A stretch of DNA of 64,000 bases, taken from contig CAUYUJ010000336.1 in NCBI GenBank assembly GCA_963575745.1, positions 62,001-126,000 on the forward strand, written 5' to 3'. The DNA comes from Prorocentrum cordatum (lineage: Eukaryota). The number at the start of each line of letters is the position of its first letter. The stretch's first letter is position 1. Below are positions 15,879 to 48,380 of this stretch, piece by piece. The position numbers and the translations under genes are program-made. The notes under the pieces were generated by a model. It saw nothing but the letters and a program-made list of their open reading frames with translations. It had not been told where the DNA came from and did not search any database.

Positions 15879-15920
<42 letters not shown>

Positions 15921-32165: not shown

Positions 32166-32449
32166 ACTTTAAACGGAGAGGGTTAAAGGCGAGATGTAAA
32201 TCGAGCATGCACCGCTGCCGTGCCTGGCTCAAGCCGGGCCCGGCCAAACATGTGATTGTGCCTCACCGAGGCGCACTACTCGCATCTGAGATCGGAAAAG
32301 ACCTTTCTATTGAAGATGCCCCTTCTATCCTTTACTCCAGATCCCATGCTTCATCTTGCTCTCTTGCTCATGCGGTATGAGCCAAAGCCTGGGATATGGG
32401 AGCGCCTAAGGCGGAACATATATCTTGGCTTACCAGTGCGTTTTCGACT
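32166..32449 (+). repeat. 5' LTR
   Basis: Matches 48381-48664 except at 32207, 32278 and 32426. Confidence 0.95.
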
Positions 32450-34073
32450 TGGTAGCGGAGCTGGCTACACTCTCGTGTGGCTGGCTCTCGCTCTAATACC
32501 CATCATCCACGGCACAACTTGGTGGACTACTACTACGGTGGAATACCATGTTGCGCCGGCTCTGCGAGGAGCGGAGCCAGTCCGCGATCGGGCTAGCGGG
32601 GCGACCCGCGAGCTCGAGACGCTCTCTCCTACCTCACTGCGCTACTTCACTCCCGACTTCCACCAGATGCCAATCGGCAACTCGATCGAGAACGTGGTCA
32701 CTCTGCGGGGCTACCCGCAGCGGGGCCACCTGCATCCCGTGCCGGTCAGGCGCCTTACGGCTACTACGCCCGAGCCTGACAAACCACAGCCTAAACCAAT
32801 CACCGAAGCCGAGATGCACATGCACTGGATCAAGATAACTATCTTCGGCATTCTATGGGTGATAATGGGATGTGCTGTGGGCTACATGCGGCAGGGGATG
32901 GACGACACGCGTACTACCGGCCCTTCTTGGGACCCAGCCGGTACTACGCCCTTTCGCGAGTACGTTCGCGAAGTACATGCATGGATAAACGTGACGAGCG
33001 GCAATATGACGCCACCTCAGCAAGCTGCAGCACTACAACGTGGTCTTCAAGGCCTTGCTCGTCGTATCGCCATGCAGGTCCCCTCCCAGATCATCAATTA
33101 TGGTGTAAATGTCAACGGACAGCCAACGGATGCAGTTACTTATATACTTTATCTATTGAGTACCAAATTTGAAAATCTGGAAGATGAGCGCCAGCTCAAC
33201 TCTGGCACTGCCCTTATCGACTTTCGCGTCGAAAGGGGCGAGCGAATCGACTCAGTGTTAGCTCGATTCGAGATGGCCCGTGACGAGGCTAACTCTGTTG
33301 GATTTGTCATCCCCAACTTTCAGATCCTAACGCTGATCCTTTTCAGAGCGTTAGGCGTTGGCGCGTCACGAGCCCAACACCTGCTGGAGCCCTTCAATCA
33401 TCAGATGCCCAGAACGCAAGCAGACTATGATAGGCTGCTGACCAGGATGAGGAACTACGGGCATGTTGCCGAGCGCTCTCCTGGCAACATTGCGGGCATC
33501 TTCGCAGGGCACCACGCACATGCAGGTGTCTACGCCACGACTGCGGGGTCACCCGCTGGTCCTGGCGAGCCAAGTCCCTGGGCTGATTCAGCCGATATGC
33601 CCAACGAGGCCACTGCCCTCTTAGGGCAGACCGGCCAGGCATCGGCAGAGGCAGCGGAGGCGAACGCCTGGTCGAACTACACGCCGGGCGCCGCCTACAC
33701 TGCAAGCCCGCCCTCGGGCACAACCCTCTGGGGCCAAGCGGAGTCATCCGCTCAAGGGTCTCAGCCACCCTCTCCGTTTGAATCTGGCACTGACACAGAT
33801 ACCTCATCTGACGGTGATCACAATGGTATGGTCTCTGCTGGCAATGACTATCCAGCTGATGACACTCACCTTTCTGAACAACAAAGAGCGGAAGCCGCTT
33901 TTATGGCTTATCGCAAATCAAAACGCCGTTGGAGGCGCATTATGAAGAAACCGGTCAGAAAAGTGAGACGTGCAGCACGCCGAGATTTCAAACGCTATGG
34001 AAAGGGTCGTGGCAAAGGGGTCGCAGACGCCGTATGCATGGTAGGGGCATCACTGCTTTCCTCACGTCCTTAA
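32256..34073 (+). CDS. gag: Gag ORF with an N-terminal hydrophobic extension; true start uncertain (Gag core from ~32898)
   Basis: GPSWDP..TPFREYVREVHAW, FRVERGERIDSVLARFE (major-homology-region-like) and a basic C-terminus. Shifts into the next ORF near 34020. Confidence 0.8.
   Translation: MCLTEAHYSHLRSEKTFLLKMPLLSFTPDPMLHLALLLMRYEPKPGIWERLRRNIYLGLPVRFRLGSGAGYTLVWLALALIPIIHGTTWWTTTTVEYHVAPALRGAEPVRDRASGATRELETLSPTSLRYFTPDFHQMPIGNSIENVVTLRGYPQRGHLHPVPVRRLTATTPEPDKPQPKPITEAEMHMHWIKITIFGILWVIMGCAVGYMRQGMDDTRTTGPSWDPAGTTPFREYVREVHAWINVTSGNMTPPQQAAALQRGLQGLARRIAMQVPSQIINYGVNVNGQPTDAVTYILYLLSTKFENLEDERQLNSGTALIDFRVERGERIDSVLARFEMARDEANSVGFVIPNFQILTLILFRALGVGASRAQHLLEPFNHQMPRTQADYDRLLTRMRNYGHVAERSPGNIAGIFAGHHAHAGVYATTAGSPAGPGEPSPWADSADMPNEATALLGQTGQASAEAAEANAWSNYTPGAAYTASPPSGTTLWGQAESSAQGSQPPSPFESGTDTDTSSDGDHNGMVSAGNDYPADDTHLSEQQRAEAAFMAYRKSKRRWRRIMKKPVRKVRRAARRDFKRYGKGRGKGVADAVCMVGASLLSSRP
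32450..32461 (+). promoter_or_regulatory. Primer-binding site, tRNA-iMet type (TGGTAGCGGAGC)
   Basis: Directly follows the 5' LTR. TGG is complementary to the tRNA CCA end, and the sequence resembles the TGGTAGCAGAG initiator-Met PBS. Confidence 0.85.
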
Positions 34074-37000
34074 CTGATGTAGTTTTTGAAGAAGTTCTTA
34101 TCGGAGGCAAAGGTCGGGGTCACAGGCGGACCTCTGGTAAGGGAAAAGGGCGGAGGGGTAACCCTAGGGACGCTTCTGGCAACACTATGAAGTGTCATAC
34201 ATGCGGTAGCACAGAGCATTTGCGCGATCATTGCCCGAAGGGGAAAGGAAAGGGATCCGTACATTTGGCTCAAAACTCTTTTATGGATGACATAGACTAC
34301 ATTGACTACGAGTTTTACGTCAATCCAGAAGCGGCTCCCGCCGCGGGCTCCTCCACGTACTACGTGATGGCCCGCTACGCTGATGCGACCGTAGCCCTGG
34401 AAGAGTACGCGGTGACCCTCTTCGACGAGTTCCACGGCTGGGACGAAGTCGACGAGGGCGCGTTCAACGCCTGGTTCGGTCTTCCAGCGGGGCCACCCGC
34501 CGACGACGAGATCTCCGAAGCTGAGACCGTCCCGGCGACCGAGGAGGAGCTCGCCGCCGCGCTGGCGCCGCAGGTGATCGGCATGCCGTTGCTGCCTGAT
34601 CTTTCGCGAGCCGGCTCGGAAGCGGGAGACGCTGACGACGAAATGCGGGGCCATCCCGCAGCTTATTCTGACTCTGAAGAGGCCGAAGAGGACTATGAGG
34701 ACAGGCTCCAAGAGCAGGTCGCAGAAGCGATCCAGCTCCTGAGTGCGCCAGCACAACAGCAGATGACCATGAACGACCTGCTGTCGCGCCCAGGGGCCGC
34801 AAGGCTGCGTCCATACCTGGATCCTGATATGTCGGCACCGCAGATGCTGACCGCACTCCAGGCCCTAGCGGGGCCACCCGCTGAAGCGGCGCCAGCTGCA
34901 GCAGCGGGGCTACCCGCTTGGTCGATGGACGAGTTCATGCAGGGCTGCGACCAGATGGACCTCAACGACCTCACTATGGAGCAGCTGACCGACATCGGGT
35001 ACTTCCAAAGCCCGCATCAGCACGTATTCACGGTCCAGGACAGCTCAGAGGACTCGGAGGACATGCGCAATGCAAAGAAGAACAGACGACCATCGCCACC
35101 TCGAGATCCAGAGCACCGTCATGAAGATGAAAGGCCCATGGAACGTGGCAGTGCGTCAGCGGGGCCAACCCGCAGGAGGAGCCGTTCAGCTCCACGACGC
35201 CCTACACATGATGCATCTGGCTACCCGTACAGCACGGAGCACTCCAGAGGTGTATCCGCTCAGTACGTGCCGGAGTGGTACATCAATTGGTACCCCGGCT
35301 ACCCGATGGACGTGATCCGCCACTGGTGGTCCAAGGAGCACTGCAAACGGGACGAATCTGGCATCATAATACGCACCAAAGGTGGCAAGACTAAAACGCC
35401 AGAGGCTTGGGACCGAAAGGCTAAGAAACAGGAGATCATCAACGATCGCAAGACATACAGGAAACAAGTATGTCAATGCGAGCCTTTCAAAGGTCACATG
35501 CGCGGCTGTCCAATGGACCGCCCCTCCAGGAGCCCTCATCACGGTGAGACCCCCTGGAACTGGTCTCATGGAGATGACGCTGGCACCGTCCACGATCCTA
35601 ACAAGAAGGTCCCTGGAGGAGGAAAGCGCATTACCGAAGCCGATCGCGTCCCTATGATCGAGGGGGTTGCTGACACTGTCAGGGAAAATTGGGAACAGCT
35701 TCCTAAAGACCATCGCCTCAAAGAATGGAACCGCCGATTCCATGAAGAGGCGGGGTCACCCGCAGACTCCAGCGGAGGTGCGGGGCCACCCGCGGGCGCG
35801 GCGCCAGCCGCTGGGTCCGCGGACGAAGAGTGGATGGCTGTTGCATCTGCTGCCGGATCCGCCGCCGGCACTGACCAGACCGAACTGAACGAAGAATGGG
35901 CGGCGGAAGACGGCTCAGAGAATCCATTCCCTGATGGATGCGCCTGCTGGTGCTACAGCTCCTCGGCACAGAAGTGGTTTTGCACGAGGGTACTTTACCG
36001 CCACGAAAATGGCAAGTACAAGCTGGCCATAAAAGGTAGTGCCAACATCGACCAGATGAGGCAGGTCATCCATGATCATGGCCAGCCAGAAGGCCCTCCT
36101 AAAGACCCTCCTGGTCCACCACCAGAGGACGACGAAGACATCGAACCACCTCCAGGACCTGTGGTCGACTCCTCGCCTCCACCTTCTCCTGAGAAGAGGT
36201 CTCCTTCCAAGAGCCCCGAAGGTTCACAGGGGCGTGCGAAGGCCAGAGGGATCGCCAAGAAGGACGACCCTGAGCCGGGAGAGCCTACCGGCCCGTCCGT
36301 GACGGAGAGGAGGAAGGCTTTTGCTGGACCATCAGCCCCGATGCCACCGGCTGCCCAAGGCGACGTCAAGGACGAAGATCGCGACCAGCCTAAGGCAGCC
36401 TTCCGAGGTGGCTGGACTCCAACTCTGCATCAGCCGCGCCTTGCACCACGACCAGGCTCGGCACGAATGAAAGCGCAACCGAAGCCCGAGGCTGGGTTGA
36501 GGTCGGTGCGGGCAGAGGCAGCCGCCAAAGGTAAGGAGGACAAGGGCTCTGCGGGGCCACCCGCTGAAGCGGCGCCAACTGCAGCAGCGGGGGCACCCGC
36601 AGAAGGCACTCCCTCAGAAGAAGAACGCCGCAAAGCCCTCAAAGAAATTGACAACCGACAGAAACTAGCCGACGATGCGCTGGCTGACCAAGGTCACCCG
36701 CACCCTGGTGCGGGGTCATCCGCTGGAGCTGCCTCGGCAGCCGCAGCGGCGCCAGCTGCAGCAGCGGGGCCACCCGCACGTCGGCAACCAGCGTCGTCTG
36801 TTCTCAAGAACATCCCTCTGGGAGCCATTGAATATTGGCAAGGCATTGAAGGCAAAGGCCCGAAACGCACCATAAACCCACGAGTCACTCGAGATGATAC
36901 AGATCGATACGCGGTCATCGATTGCCCCGATCGTCGTAACTTCGAGTGCCGTAACGAATGGGAACGTGAACAACAAGTCGTGGGCAATATGTTGCGGGAC

Positions 37001-40000
37001 AGGCCGCCATTGCGCGTCGCGCAGCACAAGGCAGAGCTCATGAATGTCATGAAGAGGTTCAACACAGATCCGACTCTGCCGCGCGATTGGCAAATGGCCA
37101 AGGTGTCAATATGGTTCTCTACAGCCCTACGCCATGGTCCGTATTGGAAAGATGGATTCAGCCGATACTTCGAAAAGATTGACACTTTCGATCCATACGA
37201 TGGCTGGGTTGTTGTTGACGACTTGCTGGCAAATTGGACTGGTGACAATCAGTGGAAAGGCTACCAGGACATGCACGATGTGCTTATCAAGGGCAACCCT
37301 CACAGCTCATACGTGTATTGGGTGTTGCTGAACTGCTGCGAGATGATCGACAACCATGGCATGCAGAAGGGCAGGCTCCAGATGAAATGCGTCGAGGATA
37401 GCATGACGCTACCTCCCAGATTCCGACCAAAGGCACACAGGCCACAATATTTCATCAGAGCCACGAACGGCCATAGCAGCCCAGGCATCCACTGCCCAGA
37501 GTCGCTCTATAAGCCCATCACGACATGGATGAAGGAACCAGATGACCCAGTATACTTTATCCACGGGACACAGTGGGAGCATGTTAAGGGCATCCTTGAG
37601 AATGGCCTTTCATGCCTCACACAGGACAACCCTAAGGGGCAGGGGGGGCGCCAGTTCGTTCACGGCTGCCCCTACCTCCCGGGTGACCCGAGGATTCAGT
37701 CGGGCATCCGTCCTGACTCTGAGGTGCTCATCTTCTGCAGCATCAGCAAGATGTTGTCCAGCGGCTTCTCTTTATGGAGGTCAGCGAATGACATCGTCAT
37801 GACACGGGGCCACAATGGCCGCATACCGCCCGATCATATCTTTCAGATTGTGAGCATTGCAAAATATCGGGTCGGTGAAGCCTGGTGCAATCCGCTGGCT
37901 TACGACAAATCGCGGAAGCGGGGCCAACCCGCGGACAGGATTTGCTCCGAGGACTACTTGCCACTTAAAATGTGCAACAGAGTTCTGGGTGTGATGGACG
38001 AGCACGCCATGTACCTAAAGGGCTGGACTAAGACGGGCGGTCGCCCATTCAACCTGACCATGACCGAGCAAGACGTTGCTCCACGACCGTACCTCACACA
38101 GACAGTCCTCATGATAAACGCCCAGGAAGACGAGGTCATGCCTGAGGCGGGGCCACCCGCAGGAGCGGGGACACCCGCGGCAGACACCTCGGATGGTTCA
38201 TGGCAGCAAGTGGTCACGCCAGTAGCCGCAGTAGCATCTCCTTGGAGGCCGGACCAGCAGACATGGGTCCAGGCCCTCAACAGCTACCTGTCACCAGCCG
38301 ACGTTTCTGGACTGACCGATCAGCTATACCGTGCTGACCCGTGGGCAGTGCAGGCAGGTATCCAAGACGCACAGCAGAGGAACCTGCGCACTCCTGCGGG
38401 GCCACCAGGCGCCCTAGGACCACAGCCACAACGCCCTCCGCAGCAGGCTGGAGGTGCGAGGTTTGTCCCTATGGGCGGCTCCGATGGTGGCTCGCCGTTC
38501 CGGACTCCGCCGTCTGAAACGAGCGAGAACAGCTTGTGGCAAAGACTCCAGGCGATTCGCGGAAATCCAGCACTCGCGGCAGCACTCCAAGCAACCACTC
38601 CCTTTGGCACTCCGAGGGGTAGTGAAGGAGGAGCGGCTGCGGGGTCACCCGCTGGGCGAACGCCTGCGGAGCCACCCGCTCAAGCGGGGTCACCCGCTGA
38701 CGGACAGCAAGGTTCAGACTACGAACGTCGGGCAGCTAACTTAAGAGCACAGGCTACTTTTCTGCAACAACAAGCTGAAAGAGTGCCCAGCCTGTTGCGG
38801 AACCGCAACATAGACGTCACAAGCCATGGCGACTTCCGACCTCTCTGGAGTTGGACTTCTGAAGATGCTCCAAACGCTGATCCCACGAATCCATATCGAC
38901 AGGTGTTTATTCCAGGAATAGCATCACACCCGATATACGGATGGGACAATCACGGTCCAGCAGAGGCGCCGGCCATGGACGCGCCGATGTACCCTGAGTA
39001 CTACGCGCAGATAAATGACACTCCTATGATTGCGGGGCCACCTGCGAACGAATACACTCGGAACTTAGCTAATGAGATGTTTCGTTTGCAGTTTACACGA
39101 GCGGTCGATGCGCAGTCTATGCCACACTACGCCTACATGCCCACGCCGACGGACCCCGAGACCATAGTCCAGCCAGCTGGTCTCGCGGTGCCAGCCGCTA
39201 TGGGCAGCATGCCAGACTACATCCGCGACGTGCACAACACGCAGCAAGCGATACTGGCATCCAGGCAGCAGGCTCGTGACAACACTAGGCTGCGCCAACA
39301 ACGCGCGATCCAGAGAAGGATTGAGCGCGAGGCCCAAGCGGGGCCACCCGCGGAAGCGGGGCCACCTGCTGAACGGCCAGAAAGGCGGCCGCCACCGACG
39401 CCATATCGGGAGGGCGAAACCACGTTCGAGCGCCAAGCTCGGACTCGCCCTGACTTGCCTGCTCCAGTCATCTCAGACTACAACTTCACTCAGTGCCCAA
39501 TCTGCATGGACAACTACGAGATGGGCACTACAGTGTGGAGACTGGCGTGCGGGCACTTCTTCCACGACATATGCTGGGACCGTGTTGCACAGCAGCATGT
39601 CCGCAATCAGCGGCCAGGTGCGCCGAATGAGGCCCCCTGTGCCGTATGCCGTGGACCGGGCATAGTGATAGCACACTTCCCGTATGCTGGACAGCGCGAT
39701 GCGGAGTCGGACCAAGCGCGCCAGCAGGAGAGGTACGTTGCAGATGCCCGCGAGATGCGTCGGTTACGCGAAGCAGTGGAGGCACTGGAGGCTCGAGCCG
39801 CACGATCGGCGGAGCCATCCGCGCGTGCCCCAGCTGCACAGGCATACCCCTGGCCAGCGCCAGAACAAGGCATTCAGATGCCGGTCTTGCCCACGCTCCG
39901 AGCGCAAGAGCCCCCAGCTGCGGGGCCACCCGCTGAAGCGGCTCCCGCCGCTCAAGCGGGGCCACCCGCTAACGGACCTCCAAACCCAGGTTTCTTGAGG

Positions 40001-41731
40001 AACATGGAGGCTAACATCAGGCGGAGTGGCAGGAGCGGAGGCGGGATTCGGAGGCCAACTGGATCGACCAGGACCTCTCGAGTGGCAAGCCCGGTCAGCG
40101 CCAGAAGCCGGGCAAGCGCTGAGAGCGCAGAGGCAGCCCAGTTCCATTCCACATTCATGATCGACACAGAGGGGCTGACCTACGTGCGTGACGATACTGA
40201 CACGCTGCCACCAAGAGGCGAATGGATGTCCACGCTATCTGCAAACTATTGGGTCCTCCAGCAGGAACCGATTACTGTGGAGGAGCGCCGCCAGTACGAG
40301 CAGATGTGGTGCACCGAGCTGACCATGACTCAATGGGTTCTTGAACAGCGCCTGTTGAGGGGTACACTCGGATCGCAGATCACGTACCACACCAACGACC
40401 ACACTGGCGTACAGGTCGCTCTTGCAGCGCGCAATGGGACATTCTTTCCTGATGAAGATGGTATGCCCTGTATCTCGTTCATGCTGGACATTGGTTCTAA
40501 TGTGAACATCATTGGATCCAACACGGCGCGGACCTTCCAGGAGATAATGGCCAGGTTCAACTACCGACCTGCCATCTGCACCCTGAGCAAGACCCTCTAC
40601 ATCAATGGTGTTGGGGAGGGCGCTGCGATATGTCGGAAGATGGGCAACTTCAAGATCGGGGTACAGTACGCCAACGAGGCGAGCCCCCGCATTGAGGAGT
40701 ATGCCTCCAACATCGCAGAAGGCTCGGGCGCCAATCTCCCGGCTATCTGGGGCCTAGGGGCCATGGAGGCACGTGATACGATCATCGTGTTGAAGCCGGG
40801 CTACCAGAAGGTCATCTTCCCCAGCGGCGACTACACCCTGAAGCTGGGAAGAGGCGCCAAGGTCCTGAAGGCGAAGAAGACTCCCTCGGGACATCTCGCG
40901 ATTCCCTGCGGGCTGTACGATGGGGCCAAGAGCCACACGGTCACGAACACCTTCACGATCCGCAGCAGTCGAGATGGCTACACCGAGACGGAGAACGAAG
41001 AGGACCCCGCCAGTGCGGGTCCACCCGCTGCGGCGGGGCCACCCGCTGACGCGTCAGCGGGGCCACCCGCGACGGGACAGTTCGCCAATCCGAATAGGCA
41101 CGAGGACTTCGTTCGTACATCTACCAACAGCTGGACATCGACCTTCACGACCGATACGTACATCGTCGAGCCGTATATCGACAAGCAGCTCCTGGAGGAC
41201 ACGACCCGTTTGATCGTGAACAGGACGCTGAACAGCTGGTGGGAGGGCCGACAGTGTCCCGAAGGGACTTGGCACCCACCTCCTGAGAACGCGGCGATGA
41301 TACGGCCACACATGAAGGCCGCCCTGAAGTCCAAGATCTTCTGGGCAGTCCAGGAGGCGGTGAGCAAATGGACGCCTGAGGAGTTTACCCCTCTGCATCC
41401 AGCGGGGCCACCCGCGTCACCGCCACCGCCACCAAGCTACACGGGCGGAGGTTCGTCGGACTCTGCGGGGCCAACCCGCCTGCTGTCGTCTGAGGACGTC
41501 CGCGGGATGACGAACCGCGAGCTGATGGACACTCTCGAAGCCATCACCCAGCGAGGTGAGAGAGCGGAGATCGTGGGTCACGCTACGGATCGGACGGAAT
41601 ACTTTGACATCTCTGAGAACAACCCGCCGAGTCTGTCTGCGAGCGTGGCCACACCAGCGACTCCTGCGGAGCCATCCGCGAACAGCACGCCTCCGAGTCA
41701 AGCGGCAACTTGGTCTCACGACAGCCGCTGA
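33929..41731 (+). CDS. 2600-aa polyprotein segment: CCHC knuckle - disordered region - Tpt1/KptA - RING-H2 - aspartic protease
   Basis: CHTCGSTEHLRDHC (34193-34234); Tpt1 motifs; CPIC..CGHFFH..C..CAVC; MLDIGSNVNIIG and PAIWG. Confidence 0.9.
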   Translation: MEAHYEETGQKSETCSTPRFQTLWKGSWQRGRRRRMHGRGITAFLTSLTDVVFEEVLIGGKGRGHRRTSGKGKGRRGNPRDASGNTMKCHTCGSTEHLRDHCPKGKGKGSVHLAQNSFMDDIDYIDYEFYVNPEAAPAAGSSTYYVMARYADATVALEEYAVTLFDEFHGWDEVDEGAFNAWFGLPAGPPADDEISEAETVPATEEELAAALAPQVIGMPLLPDLSRAGSEAGDADDEMRGHPAAYSDSEEAEEDYEDRLQEQVAEAIQLLSAPAQQQMTMNDLLSRPGAARLRPYLDPDMSAPQMLTALQALAGPPAEAAPAAAAGLPAWSMDEFMQGCDQMDLNDLTMEQLTDIGYFQSPHQHVFTVQDSSEDSEDMRNAKKNRRPSPPRDPEHRHEDERPMERGSASAGPTRRRSRSAPRRPTHDASGYPYSTEHSRGVSAQYVPEWYINWYPGYPMDVIRHWWSKEHCKRDESGIIIRTKGGKTKTPEAWDRKAKKQEIINDRKTYRKQVCQCEPFKGHMRGCPMDRPSRSPHHGETPWNWSHGDDAGTVHDPNKKVPGGGKRITEADRVPMIEGVADTVRENWEQLPKDHRLKEWNRRFHEEAGSPADSSGGAGPPAGAAPAAGSADEEWMAVASAAGSAAGTDQTELNEEWAAEDGSENPFPDGCACWCYSSSAQKWFCTRVLYRHENGKYKLAIKGSANIDQMRQVIHDHGQPEGPPKDPPGPPPEDDEDIEPPPGPVVDSSPPPSPEKRSPSKSPEGSQGRAKARGIAKKDDPEPGEPTGPSVTERRKAFAGPSAPMPPAAQGDVKDEDRDQPKAAFRGGWTPTLHQPRLAPRPGSARMKAQPKPEAGLRSVRAEAAAKGKEDKGSAGPPAEAAPTAAAGAPAEGTPSEEERRKALKEIDNRQKLADDALADQGHPHPGAGSSAGAASAAAAAPAAAAGPPARRQPASSVLKNIPLGAIEYWQGIEGKGPKRTINPRVTRDDTDRYAVIDCPDRRNFECRNEWEREQQVVGNMLRDRPPLRVAQHKAELMNVMKRFNTDPTLPRDWQMAKVSIWFSTALRHGPYWKDGFSRYFEKIDTFDPYDGWVVVDDLLANWTGDNQWKGYQDMHDVLIKGNPHSSYVYWVLLNCCEMIDNHGMQKGRLQMKCVEDSMTLPPRFRPKAHRPQYFIRATNGHSSPGIHCPESLYKPITTWMKEPDDPVYFIHGTQWEHVKGILENGLSCLTQDNPKGQGGRQFVHGCPYLPGDPRIQSGIRPDSEVLIFCSISKMLSSGFSLWRSANDIVMTRGHNGRIPPDHIFQIVSIAKYRVGEAWCNPLAYDKSRKRGQPADRICSEDYLPLKMCNRVLGVMDEHAMYLKGWTKTGGRPFNLTMTEQDVAPRPYLTQTVLMINAQEDEVMPEAGPPAGAGTPAADTSDGSWQQVVTPVAAVASPWRPDQQTWVQALNSYLSPADVSGLTDQLYRADPWAVQAGIQDAQQRNLRTPAGPPGALGPQPQRPPQQAGGARFVPMGGSDGGSPFRTPPSETSENSLWQRLQAIRGNPALAAALQATTPFGTPRGSEGGAAAGSPAGRTPAEPPAQAGSPADGQQGSDYERRAANLRAQATFLQQQAERVPSLLRNRNIDVTSHGDFRPLWSWTSEDAPNADPTNPYRQVFIPGIASHPIYGWDNHGPAEAPAMDAPMYPEYYAQINDTPMIAGPPANEYTRNLANEMFRLQFTRAVDAQSMPHYAYMPTPTDPETIVQPAGLAVPAAMGSMPDYIRDVHNTQQAILASRQQARDNTRLRQQRAIQRRIEREAQAGPPAEAGPPAERPERRPPPTPYREGETTFERQARTRPDLPAPVISDYNFTQCPICMDNYEMGTTVWRLACGHFFHDICWDRVAQQHVRNQRPGAPNEAPCAVCRGPGIVIAHFPYAGQRDAESDQARQQERYVADAREMRRLREAVEALEARAARSAEPSARAPAAQAYPWPAPEQGIQMPVLPTLRAQEPPAAGPPAEAAPAAQAGPPANGPPNPGFLRNMEANIRRSGRSGGGIRRPTGSTRTSRVASPVSARSRASAESAEAAQFHSTFMIDTEGLTYVRDDTDTLPPRGEWMSTLSANYWVLQQEPITVEERRQYEQMWCTELTMTQWVLEQRLLRGTLGSQITYHTNDHTGVQVALAARNGTFFPDEDGMPCISFMLDIGSNVNIIGSNTARTFQEIMARFNYRPAICTLSKTLYINGVGEGAAICRKMGNFKIGVQYANEASPRIEEYASNIAEGSGANLPAIWGLGAMEARDTIIVLKPGYQKVIFPSGDYTLKLGRGAKVLKAKKTPSGHLAIPCGLYDGAKSHTVTNTFTIRSSRDGYTETENEEDPASAGPPAAAGPPADASAGPPATGQFANPNRHEDFVRTSTNSWTSTFTTDTYIVEPYIDKQLLEDTTRLIVNRTLNSWWEGRQCPEGTWHPPPENAAMIRPHMKAALKSKIFWAVQEAVSKWTPEEFTPLHPAGPPASPPPPPSYTGGGSSDSAGPTRLLSSEDVRGMTNRELMDTLEAITQRGERAEIVGHATDRTEYFDISENNPPSLSASVATPATPAEPSANSTPPSQAATWSHDSR
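37090..37852 (+). CDS. tpt1: Tpt1/KptA RNA 2'-phosphotransferase domain within the polyprotein
   Basis: FSTALRHG, DGWVVVDDLL, KGRLQ, IRATNGHS, HGT, ILENGL, RQFVH, SGIRPDSEVLIF, RSANDIVMTRG.NGRIPP appear in the family's order. Confidence 0.9.
39494..39652 (+). CDS. RING-H2 (C3H2C3) zinc finger within the polyprotein
   Basis: CPICMDNYEMGTTVWRLACGHFFHDICWDRV...CAVCR. Confidence 0.92.
40470..40920 (+). CDS. Retropepsin-like aspartic protease domain (DIG active-site variant)
   Basis: ISFMLDIGSNVNIIG, flap INGVG, NLPAIWGL, TPSGHLAIP. Confidence 0.75.
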
Positions 41732-42709
41732 CGGGGGCAGGCGGGCGCGCCGGCGGCGCTCGCTTGCGAAGAGAAGCCGAATACCGGCCTCCTCGCTACA
41801 TACGTTGGCCGCGCTGAGGCCCGAGAGGAAAAATATCATTCAAAATGTCTCGTCATCGAAGATATTCGCACAGCTTGCGCTGAACTCCGAACCCGTGGCT
41901 ATATATGTGACCGGATTACCCATAATGAGGTAATGACTTCAACTGGAACACAGTATTTGGGAAACTTGTTGGCAGGAGACTATAATATGTTGTGGGTGGC
42001 CACACCCTCTGATTGGTACGTTCGTACTCCAGGAAAGAGGGCGGGACCCCACTATCAACGTATACAAAATCTCCTGATCAAAGCGCGTGCTCTGAGAATG
42101 CAGATTGTCATCCTGGGGCCACCCGGGTATTTCTGGAAACAGGGTCCGATCAAAGATGTTATCGAAGATTTGAAGCTGAGCATCATACGAATGAGACTTT
42201 GTCATTTCGGTATCAAGTTTGATCGCTCCAGTAAATATCCCAGTGGTTCTTATATACAAGTTGCTACATCTTGTCCTCATATACCGCTAAACTTATGGAG
42301 ATGTACTTGTGGCTCACACAAAGAACATGATTTGGATTGGTATGGCCAAGATCAGCAACGTGCCGAGTTCCGGCATAAAACCTTGGCTATCATCACTGCA
42401 CGCTTCCTTGATCAACTCAATAAAGCCAACATGATTAGGAATGAGCGGAGTGCGGTACACCTCAGTGCGTGTACGCGCGTTGACAAAAAGGTAAGACACT
42501 ACGTTCAATGTCCACAAAAGGGCCCTCAATGGGACCATGTTGTTCGTAGAGTCACGACCGACCTGGACACGAATAAGATCGTTCAAGATATCAAAATCCA
42601 GGATCAGCCGACTGGGTACAATTATGTAGGATGTACTCGGTCTGGGAGCCTCCGGCTCCAGTCCTTCACGGCGACGGTGAGTCGCGAAGGCCACGCCCAA
42701 AGCGTGTGA
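41732..42709 (+). CDS. In-frame continuation after the UGA: degenerate methyltransferase-like domain plus a GPxW..RRVTxDLDT module
   Basis: Same frame as 33929..41731 and open from 41732. Motifs LWVATP, ILGPP, RLCHFG, CTCG..H. Probable small deletion/frameshift near 42630. Confidence 0.6.
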   Translation, partial: RGQAGAPAALACEEKPNTGLLATYVGRAEAREEKYHSKCLVIEDIRTACAELRTRGYICDRITHNEVMTSTGTQYLGNLLAGDYNMLWVATPSDWYVRTPGKRAGPHYQRIQNLLIKARALRMQIVILGPPGYFWKQGPIKDVIEDLKLSIIRMRLCHFGIKFDRSSKYPSGSYIQVATSCPHIPLNLWRCTCGSHKEHDLDWYGQDQQRAEFRHKTLAIITARFLDQLNKANMIRNERSAVHLSACTRVDKKVRHYVQCPQKGPQWDHVVRRVTTDLDTNKIVQDIKIQDQPTGYNYVGCTRSGSLRLQSFTATVSREGHAQSV

Positions 42710-42718
42710 CGATCGTCG

Positions 42719-45700
42719 ATGACGATCGGTCTCCTCCCCCTTTCGATTGAGCGTTGCCAAACGCGACCCACCAACTTTTCTGAAATTCCGCCATTTCCTG
42801 ATCTAACAGCGGATCCTTCCGCAGCGGATCTCTCCGCGGAAACCGCGCTGCCCACTGATGCCAGGATAAAACAGAAAGAAAAGCAGAAAGCTGACAAAGA
42901 GGCTGGCATCAAACCGAAGAAAATCCCGAAGAAAGTGGAAGACGGTAACGACGATTGTGGAGAGGACCTCAAAGGGCTTGACTGCTCCACATATTTCAAC
43001 GACGTTCCTCTTGATGACTCGGACTCGGACAGCGAATCAGAGGACATCTTCATGATGCTACCGGCGGGGCAACCCGCTGACTCACATGCTGATGTCTTCT
43101 CGGTGGTCCAGTCACTATGCTACGGCAGAAACAATCAAGTGGACATGCTTGAATTATGTGGGGGCAAGGGTGGTATATCCATATTAGCCTTCAAGAGGGG
43201 ACTCTCGTCGGGCGGGAACCTTGATAAGATATCTATGGTTGACCTTGGAAACTCGGAAGTACAAAGAGCAGTCCTTCACTACCTCAAGACTTGCTTTGTC
43301 AAGATCACGATTTTGCAGCCAAGCTGCAGAACTACTGGACTTCCTTCATACTTCAATGCACAGGTCAATCATGATACGTGGCTTAAACACCACAAAGAGG
43401 ACCTGCCTCACATCACGTTCTGCGGAACAGTCGCTCTATTACAAGACGACCTAAGACGTTTCTTTCTCAGGGAACAACCAATGGGCACGTGGGTAGATGA
43501 GATCCAACCATGGAAGGAACTGGCACAACGCAAGGTCACTTGCCAAACGATTATTGATCAATGCACGACTGGTCTCAAAGATTCGTTTGGACAATACATT
43601 CGCAAGCCAACACAAATGATGGCAAACAAAGAAGAGTTGTTGGCACCTTTCAGAGGCAAGCGTTGTCCAGGTAATCATGTGCACGCCAATGCTTGCAACA
43701 AAGAACTAGCAAGGGCGGCACAGTATACCTACAGAATGCAGTCACTGATCGTTGATGCGGTGCAAATCGCCAGAGATCTGTTTGCTTACGGTCGCGATCC
43801 ATTTGCGAATCGCGAACGCAGTTACGCGTTCGTAACAAACAGTGCTGGCTACGACTTGGACGACCCAACAATCCAGAGACACTCAAACGGAGAAATCCTG
43901 CGACCACCATCTGGCGGTCTCGGGTGCCCTGGCTGCGCAGACAACAACTACAAACAATCACCAAGGCACAGCAGGAATCCGAAGATGTGTCGATGGTATG
44001 ATGTTGAACCATATTATTGGGACTGTCCAAGCTGTAAGAAGGAATATCAGAAGAGCAATCCTCACCATGCCAAGATATCTGGCCAATGCAGATTCGCCGA
44101 AAAATGGAAGCTGCCAGATAACTTTGGTCAGCCGCGCCCAGCGGGGCAAGCCGCTCCTGCGGCGCCAGCCGCGGAAGCGGCTCCAGCCGCAAACGCGGCG
44201 CCGGCCGCGAAAGCGCGCATACGCGCGCCTAGGCCGCCACGGCCTGGTGAGGGCGATCCAACCGCAGGCGCCAGCAGCCATGACATCACCAAGGCCAAGG
44301 GGGCTTATGGTGACACCACTGGCGCTGGCAGCTCTGACGATCACCGCAGACTGCCGCAAGTGGCAGCGAGGCGCGGACGCATGGAGGGAGGTGATCCTCC
44401 ACCGCCGCCGCAGCCTCATGCAGAGCCGAGGCCAAGGCCAAGGCTTCCTGATTGGACTCGCTTCGACGTTCAGCTCAGCCTTCAAAACCTGCGCAGCTTT
44501 GACCCAGCTGTAGTGCAGCGAGAACTCCGCAAGCTTCACTTGAGATGGTTTCATGCCAAGGAACCAAAGATGCGGATGATTCTAGCTAAGGTTGGTCTGG
44601 GTGAAACCCGTTTGAGTCTGATCAAAGGCATTTGCGACTCGTGTAGAGAATGTCGTGCCTGGGAGAAACCAGGCAACACGGCGATGCCTTCTGTGTCACT
44701 GCCAGGATGTTTCAACGAGGAAGTCGAATGTGATCTTTTCTTTCACAAACAGGAACACATTGTCTTTCACATCATCGACCGTTGTATTCGCTGGGCAGCT
44801 GGCACAGAGATTCCTGATAAGACTATGCACGCTGTTCTCGATGCCTATCACACAACTTGGATGCAACATGGCCCTGCTAAGATCCTATACTCCGATGGGG
44901 AAGGAGCGCTGAATAACGACACAGCAAAGGCCATCCTTAAATCCAAGGGAACAGAGCTTCGTATCCGAGCGCGTGGCCAGCACGCCACGACTATCGAAGC
45001 TAGGAACGGCATCCTGCGACACCTCATACACGTGATGGGAGAAGAACTGAATAGATTGAACATCCCTCTGAATTTCACTCGTCTCTTACATGAAGCCTTG
45101 TTTGCCAGCAACGCATTTACCTTCTACAACGAAGTGTCTCCGTATAATGCGCTGTATGGCAGACAACCAGCTATGCTTCCCGATTTCCCTGTCCTGGATC
45201 ATGATCAGTCCGCTGAATCATCAGATCACTCAAAGGAAGAGACAATCAGGAGGGTTAGTCTGGAGGCAATCACGCAGGCCACTGCGGTTGCCAAGACGAA
45301 CAGGGCTCTTCGTACGAAGACTACTGCTACGGGTGAATTTCACTACAAAGAGGGAGATCTCGTGGACTATCATCGCCCGACCACCACGAAAGACGACTGG
45401 GGTGGATGGAGTGGTCCATACCCGGTCATCCGCAACGAACCTGACCGAGGCCAGGTCATCGTGAAGGTCGGCAATCGCGAAGTGCGAGTACAGTATCCTG
45501 ACTCACGACATACGCTGTACATCGAAGCACTGATGGTCCGCGAGATAGGATCGGACAATACGGCCCTTCGGACAGTATTGGCCTTTATTGCCGGTCTGCC
45601 AGCGGGGAAACCCGCTATGACTTTCGGATACCTACCAGCGAAACAGGGCCGACTGCAGATGACTGCTGCGAGCCGGCTTTCGCCTAAGGTGCACTTGGCT

Positions 45701-47062: not shown

Positions 47063-48275
47063 AGCTTCCATCACCAGGAGCTTTGGACTACAGCCTACTT
47101 CATACGATGAAGAGTTCGAGATGAGTTCAAACCTCTTGACAGCCAAACACGTTGATGACATCAATATGACTGGGAAGGAAGATTCCATTGACAAGTACGT
47201 CAAATGTGTTGAAGATACGTTTGGAAAGTGCAAACTGAACAAGCACACATACACAAATTGTGCCGTTCGGTACAACAAGACCGATGATGGGAGCGTCACT
47301 CTTGATCAGGACGAATACATCAAACAACTTCGTCCTATCACACATCCAGAGCTCACAGGCGCTGATCCTGAGAGCAAAGCGACAAAGACGATTTCTGATA
47401 TGTTCGTCAGTCTTCGTGGCGCTCTAGCCTATGCGTTGATCACGCAGGTATGGCTGATGGTCTATGTTGTTTCACTGCAACGTATCCAGGAACCGACAAA
47501 CATCCAGGTACGACGACTGAACGCGGTTACCAGGAAATTGCAGGCAGGTCCGAAGAAGATCGTGTATCAAGCTATGACTCCAACAGGAGAGGTCGACCTG
47601 CATAGCGATTCTGGCTATCGTCGTCTCAACGGAGATGAAGACGACGAAGTCAAAGGCTACGGTATCCGCGGGGCTAACCTGCTGAGGCGTGGCCACACGC
47701 AAGCGGGGAAACCCGTCGTGCACCTGGTGGACGCATACTGCAAGTCTCATCGACTGCAGGTGCGTTCGAGCTACTCTGCGGAAACACTGGCAGCAGCCCA
47801 CAACTTGGAAGACTGCTACCCGACCATTGTAACGCTCCACGAGCTACACTCGGGACCATTGACCCCCACACAGTTGAAGAACATATTGGAACTGGGTGGT
47901 CTATGTATCAAAGTCACTCTGACTATTGATGCCGAGTCTGTCTTCAAGTCTTTGTCTAGCAAAGATCTGAAGAAGCCCACATAATGCACTCTGCTTGGGC
48001 ACATCAGCTGGATCCGCCAGATGATGGAGCGCGGAATCGTTGAAAGCGTCCAATGGTGTGACACGCGGGATATGACTGCCGATGGTCATACCAAAGGTAG
48101 TATTGACCGCGCGTTGCTCCTACAGGTAATGGCCGGTCAGCAATCCTTCAAGCACGAGCTGAAGAAACATACTCCGTATAGGGCGGGCAGGTCGTCTCAG
48201 GACGGCCCTGCCTCCCGAGCTAGCGGGGAAACCCGCGCGCAGGTGCGCTTTAGTAGCGAGGAAACTCGCCGGTAG
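47050..48275 (+). pseudogene. pol: RT C-terminal half and Copia-type RNase H (frameshifted, one internal TAA)
   Basis: KHVDDI, LDQDEYI, HSDSGY, RSSYSAETLA, IDAESV, DMTADGHTKG. Frameshift at ~47055-47070 and TAA at 47982-47984. Confidence 0.9.
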
Positions 48276-48380
48276 CGAGGCTACTCGCGCGCCCTTGCCT
48301 TGTAGGCAGCCGCTGTTGCCTAGCACTGTTTTTTCCGCGTAATGTAGAAATTCGGTGCTTGCTCGTCTCCTCCCCCTCCA

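What the first reader, a model, noticed from the sequence alone, without database searches (positions are those of the whole stretch)
37090..37852. Catalytically complete Tpt1/KptA domain between the Gag zinc knuckle and the protease
Seen: the family's Arg-His-Arg-Arg catalytic positions are present (LRH, KGRL, IRATNGHS), as are the NAD-lobe motifs (HGT, R..VH, SG.R, S.N.IV.T.G..G.IPP). Known: Tpt1 transfers an RNA 2'-phosphate to NAD+ during tRNA splicing, and several homologues ADP-ribosylate 5'-phosphorylated DNA or RNA ends. Inference: lying upstream of the UGA, it would be made at Gag levels and packaged in particles. There it could remove RT-blocking 2'-phosphates from the template or tRNA primer, or cap cDNA/RNA ends against exonucleases and ligases.
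Basis: partly seen in the sequence, partly recalled or inferred. Interest (0 to 1): 0.88.

Follow-up and report, generated by a model that had tools for sequence, protein, structure and literature searches.

The report
Tpt1 enzyme inside a dinoflagellate retrotransposon
A 16.5-kb jumping gene of a dinoflagellate carries, fused to its capsid protein, an intact and evolutionarily protected copy of the NAD-using RNA enzyme Tpt1, which I could not find reported for any retrotransposon.

Summary
Window 37082-37888 (+) encodes a full two-lobe Tpt1/KptA domain. Pfam PTS_2-RNA scores 59.7 bits against a cut-off of 26. The AlphaFold model (pLDDT 88.5) matches mouse TRPT1 at Z 20.1 over 205 of 206 residues. 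The catalytic Arg-His-Arg-Arg tetrad and the HGT, Ser-Gly and Arg NAD-contact residues are all present.

The domain lies in the Gag-to-protease reading frame of a copia-like LTR retrotransposon (32166-48664; LTRs 98.9% identical), together with a RING finger.

A metagenome relative about 45% identical over the Tpt1 domain (L001) has the same layout in one uninterrupted 2653-codon frame. Between L001 and its close relative L002 the Tpt1 domain has dN/dS 0.12, against 0.68 for the linker upstream. The element-borne Tpt1s form one long-branched clade. It accounts for 50 of the 150 best 50%-identity cluster representatives.

Four literature searches found no Tpt1-bearing retrotransposon.

Function is inferred, not shown. 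The enzyme is probably packaged with Gag and acts with NAD+ on phosphates of the element's own RNA or cDNA. I favour 2'-phosphate removal slightly over 5'-phosphate ADP-ribose capping.

Verdict: a new variant of a known kind, of high interest.

The parts
32166..32449 (+). 5' LTR (284 nt)
   Evidence: blastn of the flanks: 98.9% identical to 48381-48664. The 5-nt CCAAG lies on both outer sides, a possible target-site duplication, but the flanks are repetitive.
32450..32461 (+). Primer-binding-site-like TGGTAGCGGAGC directly after the 5' LTR
   Evidence: Read from the sequence. It starts with TGG as expected for a tRNA 3' CCA end. No tRNA gene was found in the window to match it.
32814..34016 (+). 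Gag-like core (frame of ORF 32256-34073), broken in this copy by a missing base after 34016
   Evidence: 68-78% identical to L001 over the core. There is no Pfam hit. Other copies carry one extra G after 34016, which makes this frame continuous with 33878-41731. L001 has one continuous frame.
34193..34234 (+). Zinc knuckle CX2CX4HX4C
   Evidence: Translation. The homologous L001 knuckle gives a weak Pfam zf-CCHC hit, E 0.05.
33878..41731 (+). Long frame (2617 aa): zinc knuckle, linkers, Tpt1, RING, protease-like region; ends at TGA
   Evidence: ORF list and translation.
37082..37888 (+). Tpt1/KptA domain with both lobes, carrying clade-specific inserts in the RNA lobe
   Evidence: Pfam PF01885 59.7 bits, E 5e-16. 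PDB sequence hits 7yw3/7yw2/7yw4. AF2 pLDDT 88.5. VIA Z 20.1, rmsd 2.2 over 205 of 206 residues of 7yw2.
37130..37135 (+). Catalytic Arg-His (LRH), equivalent to Sc R23-H24 / Hs R40-H41
   Evidence: Alignment to 40 canonical Tpt1 rows, where R is 37/38 and H 37/38. Numbering from PMC10415124.
37367..37375 (+). Lys-x-Arg (KGR), equivalent to Sc K69/R71 / Hs K84/R86
   Evidence: Alignment; K 40/40 and R 40/40 in canonical rows.
37562..37570 (+). HGT NAD+ motif (Hs H130-T132)
   Evidence: HMMER alignment to 7yw3, residue count.
37649..37651 (+). Fourth catalytic Arg (GRQFVH), equivalent to Sc R138 / Hs R150
   Evidence: HMMER alignment to 7yw3.
37700..37711 (+). Donor-loop Ser-Gly and Arg (SGIR), equivalent to Hs S167-G168 and R170
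39494..39649 (+). RING finger
   Evidence: Pfam zf-RING_2 30.1 bits against a cut-off of 27.3. Also present in relative P0003/L001.
40484..40501 (+). Protease-like motif L-D-I-G-S-N
   Evidence: Invariant in window, L001 and P0003. There is no Pfam hit, the AF2 model is unusable (pLDDT 35.5), and the atlas gives only a weak lead. This label is an inference.
41729..41731 (+). First in-frame TGA (context TGA-C)
41732..42709 (+). 325-codon in-frame stretch of unknown function, ending at a second in-frame TGA (42707-42709)
42710..47062 (+). Pol-type frame: unknown N-terminal part; integrase-like HHCC and D,D,E motifs at 44537-45010 (read by eye); start of copia-type RT
   Evidence: Translation and motif positions. 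Pfam RVT_2 33.6 bits against a cut-off of 31.6 on 46592-46873. Pfam finds no rve.
46878..47984 (+). Rest of RT/RNase H in another frame in this copy
   Evidence: ORF list. Other copies carry +A after 47052 and +CAGG after 47066, which together bring the frames into register. The same C-terminal sequence opens contig L001.
48381..48664 (+). 3' LTR

Best explanation
WHAT IT IS (shown). This is a young copy of a 16.5-kb Ty1/copia-like LTR retrotransposon of a dinoflagellate. It carries three frame-breaking indels. The only named relatives are gene models of Prorocentrum cordatum.

Its first long reading frame encodes, in order: Gag core, zinc knuckle, about 960 residues of linkers, a complete Tpt1/KptA NAD+-dependent RNA 2'-phosphotransferase domain, about 560 residues, a RING finger, and a protease-like region. 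Integrase and RT follow, behind in-frame TGA codons.

The Tpt1 domain belongs to an old, diversified clade that is borne by such elements. It is kept under purifying selection with all catalytic residues.

HOW IT MOST LIKELY WORKS (inferred). The enzyme is translated as part of the Gag-containing polyprotein. It is therefore built into the virus-like particle and probably released by the element's protease. There it uses NAD+ to act on phosphate groups of the element's own nucleic acids.

My leading chemistry is the family's defining reaction: transfer of an RNA 2'-phosphate to NAD+. This would clear 2'-phosphates from the genomic RNA or primer, for example after cleavage and religation by a tRNA-ligase-type pathway, so that reverse transcription can proceed.

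Odds: about 0.9 that this is a genuine, selected, active-type Tpt1 in the Gag frame; about 0.35 for 2'-phosphate removal as the chemistry. The confidence figure below is for the whole statement.
For: Identity:
- Pfam PF01885 at 59.7 bits, E 5e-16, covering profile positions 11-177 of 177.
- phmmer hits to HsTRPT1 7yw3 (E 1.5e-13), MmTRPT1 7yw2 and ScTpt1 7yw4.
- AF2 model with pLDDT 88.5 and pTM 0.82.
- The 22 Foldseek matches with E <= 0.001 are all Tpt1/KptA structures.
- VIA Z 20.1, rmsd 2.2 A over 205 of 206 residues of mouse TRPT1; Z 12.6-13.9 for the complex-form archaeal and bacterial Tpt1 structures.
- The tetrad and the NAD-contact residues are present.

Fusion to Gag:
- L001 has one frame of 2653 codons from Gag through the protease-like region.
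- Most other copies of the window's family carry one more base after 34016, which joins the Gag frame to the long frame.

Selection:
- L001 against L002: Tpt1 has dN 0.106, dS 0.92, omega 0.116 over 241 codons. The upstream linker has omega 0.68 over 167 codons.
- Window against L001: non-synonymous difference is 0.29 in the NAD lobe, 0.50 in linkers and 0.43 in the protease-like region.
- Identity profile: NAD lobe 0.52-0.66, second only to the Gag and zinc-knuckle region (0.66-0.78).
- Catalytic columns among 23 clade rows, many of them fragments: R 6/8, H 8/8, R 14/16, R 14/18, S 14/16, G 14/16, R 15/16.
- The tetrad is kept in 4 of 4 complete or nearly complete members.

Chemistry:
- The Arg equivalent to Sc R71 / Hs R86 is essential for 2'-phosphotransfer. 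It is only partly needed for 5'-phosphate ADP-ribosylation: R86A keeps about 20-50% of that activity (PMC10415124, passages).
- This Arg is conserved as strongly as the other catalytic residues here (14/16).
Against: - No activity, expression, packaging or cleavage data exist.
- No source of 2'-phosphates in a retrotransposon's cycle is known.
- Dinoflagellates already have canonical Tpt1s, for example Symbiodinium P0065. A second enzyme with the same job needs a reason, such as confinement in the particle.
- The clade sits on a very long branch (stem 1.95 changes per column).
- The clade has inserts in the RNA-binding lobe, which fits a changed substrate.
- Some clade fragments have lost catalytic residues. 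The HGT His is kept in only 11/17 rows and the R150-equivalent in 14/18, as expected if many copies are dead.
- Conservation of the R71-equivalent is only a weak discriminator between the two chemistries.
- That a 2'-phosphate blocks reverse transcriptase is my recollection; no call supports it.
Confidence: 0.45

Rival explanations
1. The same enzyme in the same place, but its biologically relevant reaction is the arrested first step: ADP-ribosylation of 5'-phosphate ends.

It would cap the 5'-phosphorylated ends of the linear cDNA that remain after RNase H removes the tRNA and polypurine primers, or the ends of the RNA. This would shield them from 5'-3' exonucleases and from end-joining into dead-end circles. 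The 3'-OH ends that integrase needs would stay free.
For: - TRPT1/KptA enzymes ADP-ribosylate 5'-phosphorylated ssDNA and ssRNA in vitro (PMC10415124 passages; abstract of PMC12678800 in the listing).
- The best sequence and structure matches of the domain are mouse and human TRPT1. Those enzymes are more active in this reaction than yeast Tpt1.
- The long branch and the RNA-lobe inserts fit a shift of substrate.
- The retroelement cycle offers defined 5'-phosphate DNA ends; this rests on established knowledge of LTR-element replication, not on a call.
Against: - No biological role for 5'-phosphate ADP-ribose caps is established in any organism.
- Nothing in the sequence discriminates this from 2'-phosphate removal.
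- The R71/R86-equivalent, which is dispensable for most of this activity, is nevertheless conserved (14/16).
Confidence: 0.3
2. The enzyme is aimed at the host rather than at the element. It might repair host tRNAs or RNAs cut by a defence nuclease, as is proposed for phage KptA. It might erase or write a host nucleic-acid mark. It might work with the RING finger in an ADP-ribose/ubiquitin pathway.
For: - KptA is proposed to serve RNA repair in jumbo phages.
- KptA is embedded in a few positive-strand RNA-virus polyproteins (PMC9503650, passages).
- A conserved RING finger lies in the same polyprotein.
Against: - Fusion to Gag suggests action inside the particle.
- No ligase, 2H phosphoesterase or macro domain was found in the element by Pfam.
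- The RING lies about 560 residues away and may be cleaved off.
Confidence: 0.12
3. The domain is a passenger or an artefact. It could be a host Tpt1 gene fragment trapped in one copy, an assembly chimera, or a relic that no longer does anything.
For: - This copy carries frame-breaking indels elsewhere.
- Several clade fragments have lost catalytic residues.
- The Prorocentrum cordatum gene models that contain pieces of it are chimeric.
Against: - The same architecture occurs in an independent metagenome contig about 45% identical over the Tpt1 domain.
- Omega is 0.116.
- The clade is monophyletic with SH-aLRT 99.
- 50 of the 150 best cluster representatives are of the element type.
- Contigs from four sequencing runs cover the domain, two of them without any difference from the window.
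Confidence: 0.03

Closest known systems
Cellular Tpt1/TRPT1/KptA RNA 2'-phosphotransferases (PF01885; e.g. mouse TRPT1 7yw2, human 7yw3)
   Same: Two-lobe fold (Z 20.1 and 18.7). The Arg-His-Arg-Arg tetrad, Lys, HGT, Ser-Gly and Arg NAD contacts are all present.
   Different: - Only 23-30% identical to canonical Tpt1 rows.
- The Pfam score is about 60 bits, against 150-200 bits for canonical proteins.
- It has extra segments in the RNA lobe and after the K-x-R strand.
- It is not a free-standing protein but a module about 960 residues into a retrotransposon Gag polyprotein.
- It forms a separate long-branched clade.
KptA domains of viruses: jumbo phages, sawfly nucleopolyhedroviruses, Bodo saltans virus, and a few positive-strand RNA-virus polyproteins (Iyer, Burroughs and Aravind 2022, PMC9503650; passages read)
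   Same: A Tpt1/KptA module carried by a selfish replicon, in some cases embedded in a polyprotein.
   Different: In the passages I read, that survey mentions retroviruses only for the 2H domain, not for KptA, and does not mention retrotransposons. Here the host is an LTR retrotransposon, the fusion partner is Gag, and the family is multi-copy in a eukaryotic genome.
Retrotransposons that captured a host nucleic-acid-modifying enzyme: SymbioLINE-Dnmt and SymbioDIRS-Dnmt3 of Symbiodinium (de Mendoza et al. 2018, PMC5890265; passages read)
   Same: Dinoflagellate retrotransposons with an accessory enzyme domain under purifying selection, thought to act on the element's RNA or cDNA.
   Different: The enzyme differs (DNMT, not Tpt1) and so does the element class (LINE and DIRS). 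That paper states that Symbiodinium Copia elements lack a DNMT domain and does not mention Tpt1 (0 occurrences).
Ty1/copia (Pseudoviridae-type) LTR retrotransposons
   Same: LTRs, a primer-binding-like site, Gag with a zinc knuckle, an integrase-like region before an RVT_2-type RT, and a possible 5-bp target duplication.
   Different: - Three times the usual size.
- About 2000 extra residues between the zinc knuckle and the protease-like region, holding Tpt1 and a RING finger.
- About 900 further codons between the protease-like region and the integrase-like motifs.
- In-frame TGA codons in place of one open frame.
- Gag, protease and integrase are too diverged for Pfam.

Membership tests
Tpt1/KptA (Pfam PF01885) | Scores above the curated Pfam gathering threshold over most of the profile | tested here: met
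   59.7 bits against a cut-off of 26; profile positions 11-177 of 177.
Tpt1/KptA (Pfam PF01885) | Two-lobe fold: N-terminal winged-helix RNA lobe plus C-terminal ADP-ribosyltransferase-type NAD+ lobe | tested here: met
   AF2 pLDDT 88.5. Z 20.1, rmsd 2.2 A, 205 of 206 residues of 7yw2. The 18 best entries are all Tpt1/KptA.
Tpt1/KptA (Pfam PF01885) | Catalytic tetrad Arg-His-Arg-Arg (Sc R23, H24, R71, R138) | tested here: met
   R 37130, H 37133, R 37373 and R 37649, from the alignment with 40 canonical rows and with 7yw3. Residue list from PMC10415124.
Tpt1/KptA (Pfam PF01885) | NAD+ contacts: HGT motif, donor-loop Ser-Gly, Arg (Hs R170) | tested here: met
   HGT 37562-70; SGIR 37700-11.
Tpt1/KptA (Pfam PF01885) | NAD+-dependent removal of an RNA 2'-phosphate; complementation of yeast tpt1-delta | not testable with these tools
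   Needs a bench assay.
Ty1/copia-type LTR retrotransposon | Two long terminal direct repeats flanking the coding region | tested here: met
   284 nt, 98.9% identical, 16.2 kb apart.
Ty1/copia-type LTR retrotransposon | RVT_2-type reverse transcriptase | tested here: met
   33.6 bits against a cut-off of 31.6 on window 46400-47059. Only the first 90 of 244 profile positions match, because the frame is broken in this copy.
Ty1/copia-type LTR retrotransposon | Integrase placed before RT | tested here: inconclusive
   HHCC and D,D,E motifs were read by eye at 44537-45010, upstream of the RT. Pfam rve was not detected.
Ty1/copia-type LTR retrotransposon | Retropepsin-type aspartic protease | tested here: inconclusive
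   A conserved D-I-G-S motif. No Pfam hit. AF2 pLDDT 35.5. Atlas lead at 0.82 only.
Ty1/copia-type LTR retrotransposon | Gag with CCHC zinc knuckle | tested here: inconclusive
   CX2CX4HX4C is present. The homologous L001 knuckle gives Pfam zf-CCHC E 0.05. There is no Gag family hit.
Ty1/copia-type LTR retrotransposon | Primer binding site next to the 5' LTR and a 5-bp target-site duplication | tested here: inconclusive
   TGGTAGCGGAGC follows the LTR and CCAAG lies on both sides. No matching tRNA is at hand and the flanks are repetitive.
RING-type zinc finger | Scores above the Pfam gathering threshold | tested here: met
   zf-RING_2 30.1 against 27.3, zf-C3HC4_2 29.2 against 27, zf-RING_11 28.3 against 27.

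The most novel reading that the evidence does not exclude
A whole family of giant copia-like retrotransposons of dinoflagellates has made an NAD+-dependent nucleic-acid phosphate-modifying enzyme part of its particle. The element uses it to clear 2'-phosphates from its replication intermediates or to cap them with ADP-ribose. It may do so in concert with the RING finger of the same polyprotein and with the 28 small hairpins scattered along its RNA.

This would be the first retroelement-encoded Tpt1. It would also be a natural system that shows what Tpt1 enzymes do outside tRNA splicing.
Probability: 0.3. Interest if true: 0.9.

Novelty: new variant of a known kind. Interest (0 to 1): 0.78.

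Why it matters
Tpt1/KptA is found in all domains of life. Outside fungal and plant tRNA splicing, and one archaeal tRNA mark, its natural substrates are unknown. A recent paper from the field says that internal 2'-phosphate RNAs 'remain to be discovered' (PMC12621583, introduction).

A retrotransposon keeps this enzyme fused to its capsid protein under purifying selection. That points to a defined set of nucleic acids in which to look for the substrate: genomic RNA, primer and cDNA inside a particle.

The finding also adds a new class of accessory enzyme to LTR retrotransposons, alongside the DNA methyltransferases captured by other dinoflagellate retroelements. It shows that these huge, poorly annotated genomes hide elements three times the usual size that current gene models break into chimeras.

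Tried and rejected
- Whole-genome census of sibling copies: no genome is held for this window.
- Expression: the run search listed no RNA holder. This says nothing either way.
- Read laying returned contigs only and printed 40 of 1003 base differences. A copy-by-copy dN/dS within the window's own family was therefore not possible.
- Window against L001: synonymous sites are saturated (pS 0.67-0.85), so only non-synonymous differences could be compared.
- Protease: no relevant Pfam hit even at E up to 10. The AF2 model from 3 sequences is unusable, pLDDT 35.5. The atlas gives only a 0.82 lead to RVP_2/RVP.
- Gag, integrase, and the 325-codon stretch between the two TGAs: no relevant Pfam family.
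- Methyltransferase-like stretch 43010-44110: no PDB sequence hit below E 0.48, no Pfam hit, and only a 0.80 atlas lead to C5 DNA methylase.
- IMG/VR viral contigs: no relative.
- L003, the third metagenome locus, is a chance match full of stops and was dropped.
- The first alignment (A2) was too gappy for the locus search. It was replaced by A3.
- The origin of the element-borne clade could not be placed. The tree is unrooted, the stem is long, and most canonical rows are unnamed.
- The Symbiodinium protein P0112 (Tpt1 + endonuclease + RVT_1) looked like a second, LINE-borne Tpt1. Its Tpt1 groups with a canonical-type Symbiodinium protein, and the gene model may be a fusion. I rejected it as support.
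- Earlier notes of this scan: none for this genome or sequence. The three word hits concern phage Tpt1-like modules and did not bear on this.
Full report
OBSERVATION

The + strand frame 33878-41731 is open for 2617 codons. Pfam places PTS_2-RNA (Tpt1/KptA, PF01885) at residues 1081-1311. The score is 59.7 bits (cut-off 26), E 5e-16, covering profile positions 11-177 of 177.

A phmmer search of the 289-residue stretch 37034-37900 against all PDB sequences gave three hits:
- human TRPT1 7yw3, E 1.5e-13;
- mouse TRPT1 7yw2, E 1.3e-12;
- yeast Tpt1 7yw4, E 9e-4.

An AlphaFold2 model built on a 64-row alignment has mean pLDDT 88.5 and pTM 0.82. In Foldseek against the PDB, the 22 matches with E <= 0.001 are all Tpt1/KptA structures. 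VIA-align gives:
- Z 20.1, rmsd 2.2 A, over 205 of 206 residues of mouse TRPT1;
- Z 18.7 for human TRPT1;
- Z 12.6-13.9 for the complex-form archaeal and bacterial enzymes.

Both lobes are therefore present.

CATALYTIC RESIDUES

PMC10415124 (passages read) gives the residues essential for 2'-phosphotransfer as Sc R23, H24, R71, R138 = Hs R40, H41, R86, R150. It gives the NAD contacts as the HGT motif (Hs 130-132), S167-G168 and R170.

I counted along the printed HMMER alignment to 7yw3 and along the alignment with 40 canonical Tpt1 rows. The window has:

| Residue(s) | Motif | nt |
|---|---|---|
| R-H | LRH | 37130-35 |
| K-x-R | KGR | 37367-75 |
| H-G-T | HGT | 37562-70 |
| R | GRQFVH | 37649-51 |
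| S-G-x-R | SGIR | 37700-11 |

That Arg is conserved too, but the fourth is the one in GRQFVH. The conclusion 'catalytically complete' stands.

THE ELEMENT

Two direct repeats of 284 nt, 98.9% identical, lie at 32166-32449 and 48381-48664. A TGG-initial primer-binding-like site follows the first. CCAAG lies on both outer sides, though the flanks are repetitive.

Reading 5' to 3', the element holds:
- A Gag-like core at 32814-34016. It has no Pfam hit but is 68-78% identical to the relative L001.
- A CX2CX4HX4C knuckle at 34193-34234.
- About 960 residues of mostly low-complexity linker with one conserved Cys/His-rich module.
- The Tpt1 domain.
- About 560 residues.
- A RING finger at 39494-39649 (Pfam zf-RING_2 30.1 bits).
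- A region with a conserved L-D-I-G-S-N motif at 40484-40501, which I take for the protease by position only.
- An in-frame TGA at 41729, then 325 codons of unknown function, then a second in-frame TGA at 42707.
- About 600 codons of unknown function.
- Integrase-like HHCC and D,D,E motifs, read by eye.
- A copia-type RT (RVT_2, 33.6 bits against a cut-off of 31.6).

The order, with the integrase-like region before the RT, and the RVT_2 hit make it copia-like. Its 16.5 kb is about three times the usual size.

STATE OF THIS COPY

Contigs of four public runs were laid on the element. Pieces laid were 29,746 (X1), 2,850 (X2), 841 (X3) and 504 (X8), so the family is highly repeated.

| Place | Change in other copies | X1 | X2 | X3 | X8 | Effect |
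|---|---|---|---|---|---|---|
| after 34016 | +G | 13 contigs, depth 1008 of 2597 | all depth | all depth | all depth | joins the Gag frame to the long frame |
| after 47052 | +A | 170 of 617 | 1315 of 2543 | 104 of 104 | 34 of 79 | with the next row, aligns the two RT frames |
| after 47066 | +CAGG | 30.5 of 361 | 0 | 104 of 104 | 0 | see previous row |

The window's copy therefore has frame breaks in Gag and RT. Its Tpt1 region has none.

Of the 40 differences printed (out of 1003), only one lies in the domain: 37136 G>A, seen in all four runs. It turns the Gly after LRH into Ser, as in the Prorocentrum proteins, and is not a catalytic position. Two X2 contigs (37192-37386 and 37528-37728) match the window without any difference.

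RELATIVES

Searches found the following.
- Seven Prorocentrum cordatum gene models hold pieces of the domain at 66-86% identity. They are chimeric.
- An unnamed ENA protein, P0003 (1627 aa), has Tpt1 + RING + the protease-like region at about 45% identity.
- A further complete member, P0160, is 43% identical.
- In the representative library, 694 proteins have E <= 1e-3, 74 have E <= 1e-10 and 8 have E <= 1e-30.
- Of the 150 listed, 50 score higher with a profile of the element-type rows than with a profile of canonical rows. 23 of the element-type rows were in the training set.
- Of 52 longer hits scanned with Pfam, 49 carry PTS_2-RNA. Only P0003 adds a RING, and only P0112 adds retroelement domains.

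The metagenome scan returned L001, a contig of 8780 nt. It starts with the RNase H end of an upstream copy, followed by about 125 nt of spacer before the frame opens. From 820 to its end it has one uninterrupted frame of 2653 codons. That frame runs from Gag through the zinc knuckle, Tpt1 and RING into the protease-like region. The Gag-Tpt1 fusion is thus a property of the family and not of one copy.

SELECTION

- L002 is a close relative of L001. Over the Tpt1 domain (241 codons), dN is 0.106, dS 0.92 and omega 0.116. Over the linker just upstream (167 codons), omega is 0.68.
- Between the window and L001, synonymous sites are saturated. Non-synonymous difference is 0.29 in the NAD lobe, against 0.50 in linkers, 0.40 in the RING and 0.43 in the protease-like region.
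- Identity in 50-residue windows peaks at Gag and the zinc knuckle (0.66-0.78) and next at the Tpt1 NAD lobe (0.52-0.66).
- Among 23 element-type rows, many short and some clearly decayed, the catalytic columns are kept in 6/8 (R), 8/8 (H), 14/16 (R), 14/18 (R), 14/16 (S), 14/16 (G) and 15/16 (R). The HGT His is kept in 11/17.
- All four complete or nearly complete members keep the tetrad.

PHYLOGENY

A tree of 80 domain rows was built (quick IQ-TREE, SH-aLRT only). I used only rows that cover at least 200 profile positions, or at least 90 for six named element-type fragments. The eight element-type rows fall on one side of a branch with support 99, on a stem of 1.95 changes per column. The two Symbiodinium proteins sit among canonical Tpt1s. 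The tree is unrooted and most canonical rows are unnamed, so the donor of the domain cannot be named.

TRANSLATION REGIME

In the window, Tpt1 lies upstream of both in-frame TGAs (each followed by C), in the frame that also holds Gag. Its product should therefore be as abundant as Gag and more abundant than integrase and RT. This is an inference; no expression data were obtained.

Part of the family lacks one base at 42741: nearly all X2 depth (797 of 806) and the single X8 contig (34.5 of 34.5). That would put the pol frame at -1 relative to the upstream frame, instead of in frame behind a TGA. The way pol is reached may therefore differ between subfamilies.

MECHANISM

Shown:
- an intact, selected Tpt1-type active site;
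- covalent linkage to Gag in the primary translation product.

Inferred:
- incorporation into particles;
- release by the element's protease;
- action on the element's nucleic acids.

Two chemistries are documented for the family.

(a) Transfer of an RNA 2'-phosphate to NAD+. This is the defining reaction.

(b) ADP-ribosylation of 5'-phosphate ends of RNA or DNA (abstract of PMC12678800 in the listing).

I rank (a) slightly first, for two reasons. It is the activity shared by all tested orthologues (PMC12621583, introduction). And the Arg that is essential for (a), but only partly needed for (b), is conserved as strongly as the rest.

The case for (b) rests on the very long branch, the inserts in the RNA lobe and the existence of host Tpt1s. 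These argue for a specialised substrate, and a retroelement cDNA offers defined 5'-phosphate ends.

A host-directed role, such as RNA repair as proposed for phage KptA, is a third possibility.

COMPARISON AND NOVELTY

Four full-text searches found no paper that places a Tpt1/KptA domain in a retrotransposon:
- Tpt1/KptA/retrotransposon;
- PF01885/PTS 2-RNA with retrotransposon or transposable;
- Tpt1/phosphotransferase with reverse transcriptase/LTR/gag;
- dinoflagellate retrotransposons.

The two papers that hold all three terms were checked or listed only. PMC4053983 names PF01885 in a table of regulated genes. PMC3549820 was seen in the listing only.

The survey of NAD/ADP-ribose systems in viruses reports KptA in phages, two groups of large DNA viruses and a few RNA-virus polyproteins. 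In the passages I read, it mentions retroviruses only for the 2H domain (PMC9503650).

The closest precedent in kind is the capture of DNA methyltransferases by Symbiodinium LINE and DIRS elements (PMC5890265).

Subscription journals and supplements were not searched, so 'not in print' is limited to these searches. I class the finding as a new variant of a known kind: an LTR retrotransposon with a new accessory enzyme, and a new element-borne clade of Tpt1.

LIMITS

- There are no data on genome-wide copy state, expression, processing or activity.
- The labels Gag, protease and integrase rest on motifs, order and conservation, not on family models.
- The organism is inferred only from named protein relatives.

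Noticed in passing
window 32596-46271 (+), e.g. 36764-36777 and 38147-38160; L001 2137-7538: A 14-nt hairpin motif, GCGGGG-NN-ACCCGC (5-bp stem, 4-nt loop), occurs 28 times on the sense strand of the element and once elsewhere in the window. Chance expectation is 0.06.

Mismatches sit mostly in the loop. In the long frame, 16 in-frame copies with a Pro or Gln codon in the loop encode AGPPA (15) or AGQPA (1). Near the 5' end, three of the four copies lie in other codon phases.

The relative L001 has GC(A/G)GGGCAACCTGC (AGQPA) 10 times, with a compensatory stem change (G-C to A-T).

It could be a set of dispersed packaging or Gag-binding signals, protease sites, or both.
   Followed up: partly
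window 39494-39649: A RING finger lies in the same Gag-to-protease frame and is conserved in the relatives P0003 and L001. An E3-ligase-type module in a retrotransposon polyprotein is unusual in itself.
   Followed up: partly
window 43010-44110: The N-terminal part of the pol frame has motifs that resemble C5 DNA methyltransferase motifs I, IV and VI: LELCGGKGG, QPSC and REQP (my reading). The only tool support is a weak atlas lead (0.80, PF00145 on 12% of a cluster). Pfam and PDB sequence searches found nothing.
   Followed up: partly
window 41729-41731, 42707-42709, 42741: Two in-frame TGA-C stops separate the Gag-to-protease frame, a 325-codon unknown frame and the pol frame. Part of the family (almost all depth in run X2, and X8) lacks one base at 42741, which would replace the second in-frame stop by a -1 frame overlap.
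   Followed up: partly
window 34016; 47052-47066: Compared with most other copies, this copy lacks one base in Gag and five bases in the RT, which splits both frames. This is so although its LTRs are 98.9% identical.
   Followed up: yes
window about 35390-35560: A Cys/His-rich module of unknown function (..YRKQVCQCEPFKGHMRGCPMDRPSRSP..) lies between the zinc knuckle and Tpt1. It is conserved in L001 and in the ENA fragment P0089, and has no Pfam hit.
   Followed up: no
protein P0112 (Symbiodinium sp. CCMP2592, CAE7204775.1): A 2131-residue gene model joins a canonical-type Tpt1 domain (151 bits) to an Exo_endo_phos endonuclease and an RVT_1 reverse transcriptase. It is either a LINE-borne Tpt1 or a fused gene model. 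Its Tpt1 is sister to that of a second Symbiodinium protein, P0065.
   Followed up: partly
window 31749-32165 and 48665-48782: The DNA on both sides of the element is the same short-unit repeat (CCAAGATGGCCCAAGACGG-like), 75-87% alike. Some contigs join 32133 to about 48665 with other letters in between. These may be empty sites or other repeat units.
   Followed up: no
window 13188-14394; 15381-16016; 17196-31219; 58904-60421: Several large tandem or interspersed repeat arrays lie elsewhere in the window: a 101-nt array, 9-15-nt periodic arrays, families with about 64-nt and about 430-nt spacing, and GAG/GAT-rich runs.
   Followed up: no
window 42001-48000: G+C falls to 0.49-0.54 in the pol part of the element, against 0.57-0.62 in the Gag-to-protease part.
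   Followed up: no
protein P0159 (EukProt, labelled Pyramimonas sp.): A 163-residue fragment of the element-type Tpt1 (55% identical) is filed under a green alga in a protein set that I recall to be transcriptome-derived. It may reflect contamination, or transcription of such an element.
   Followed up: no
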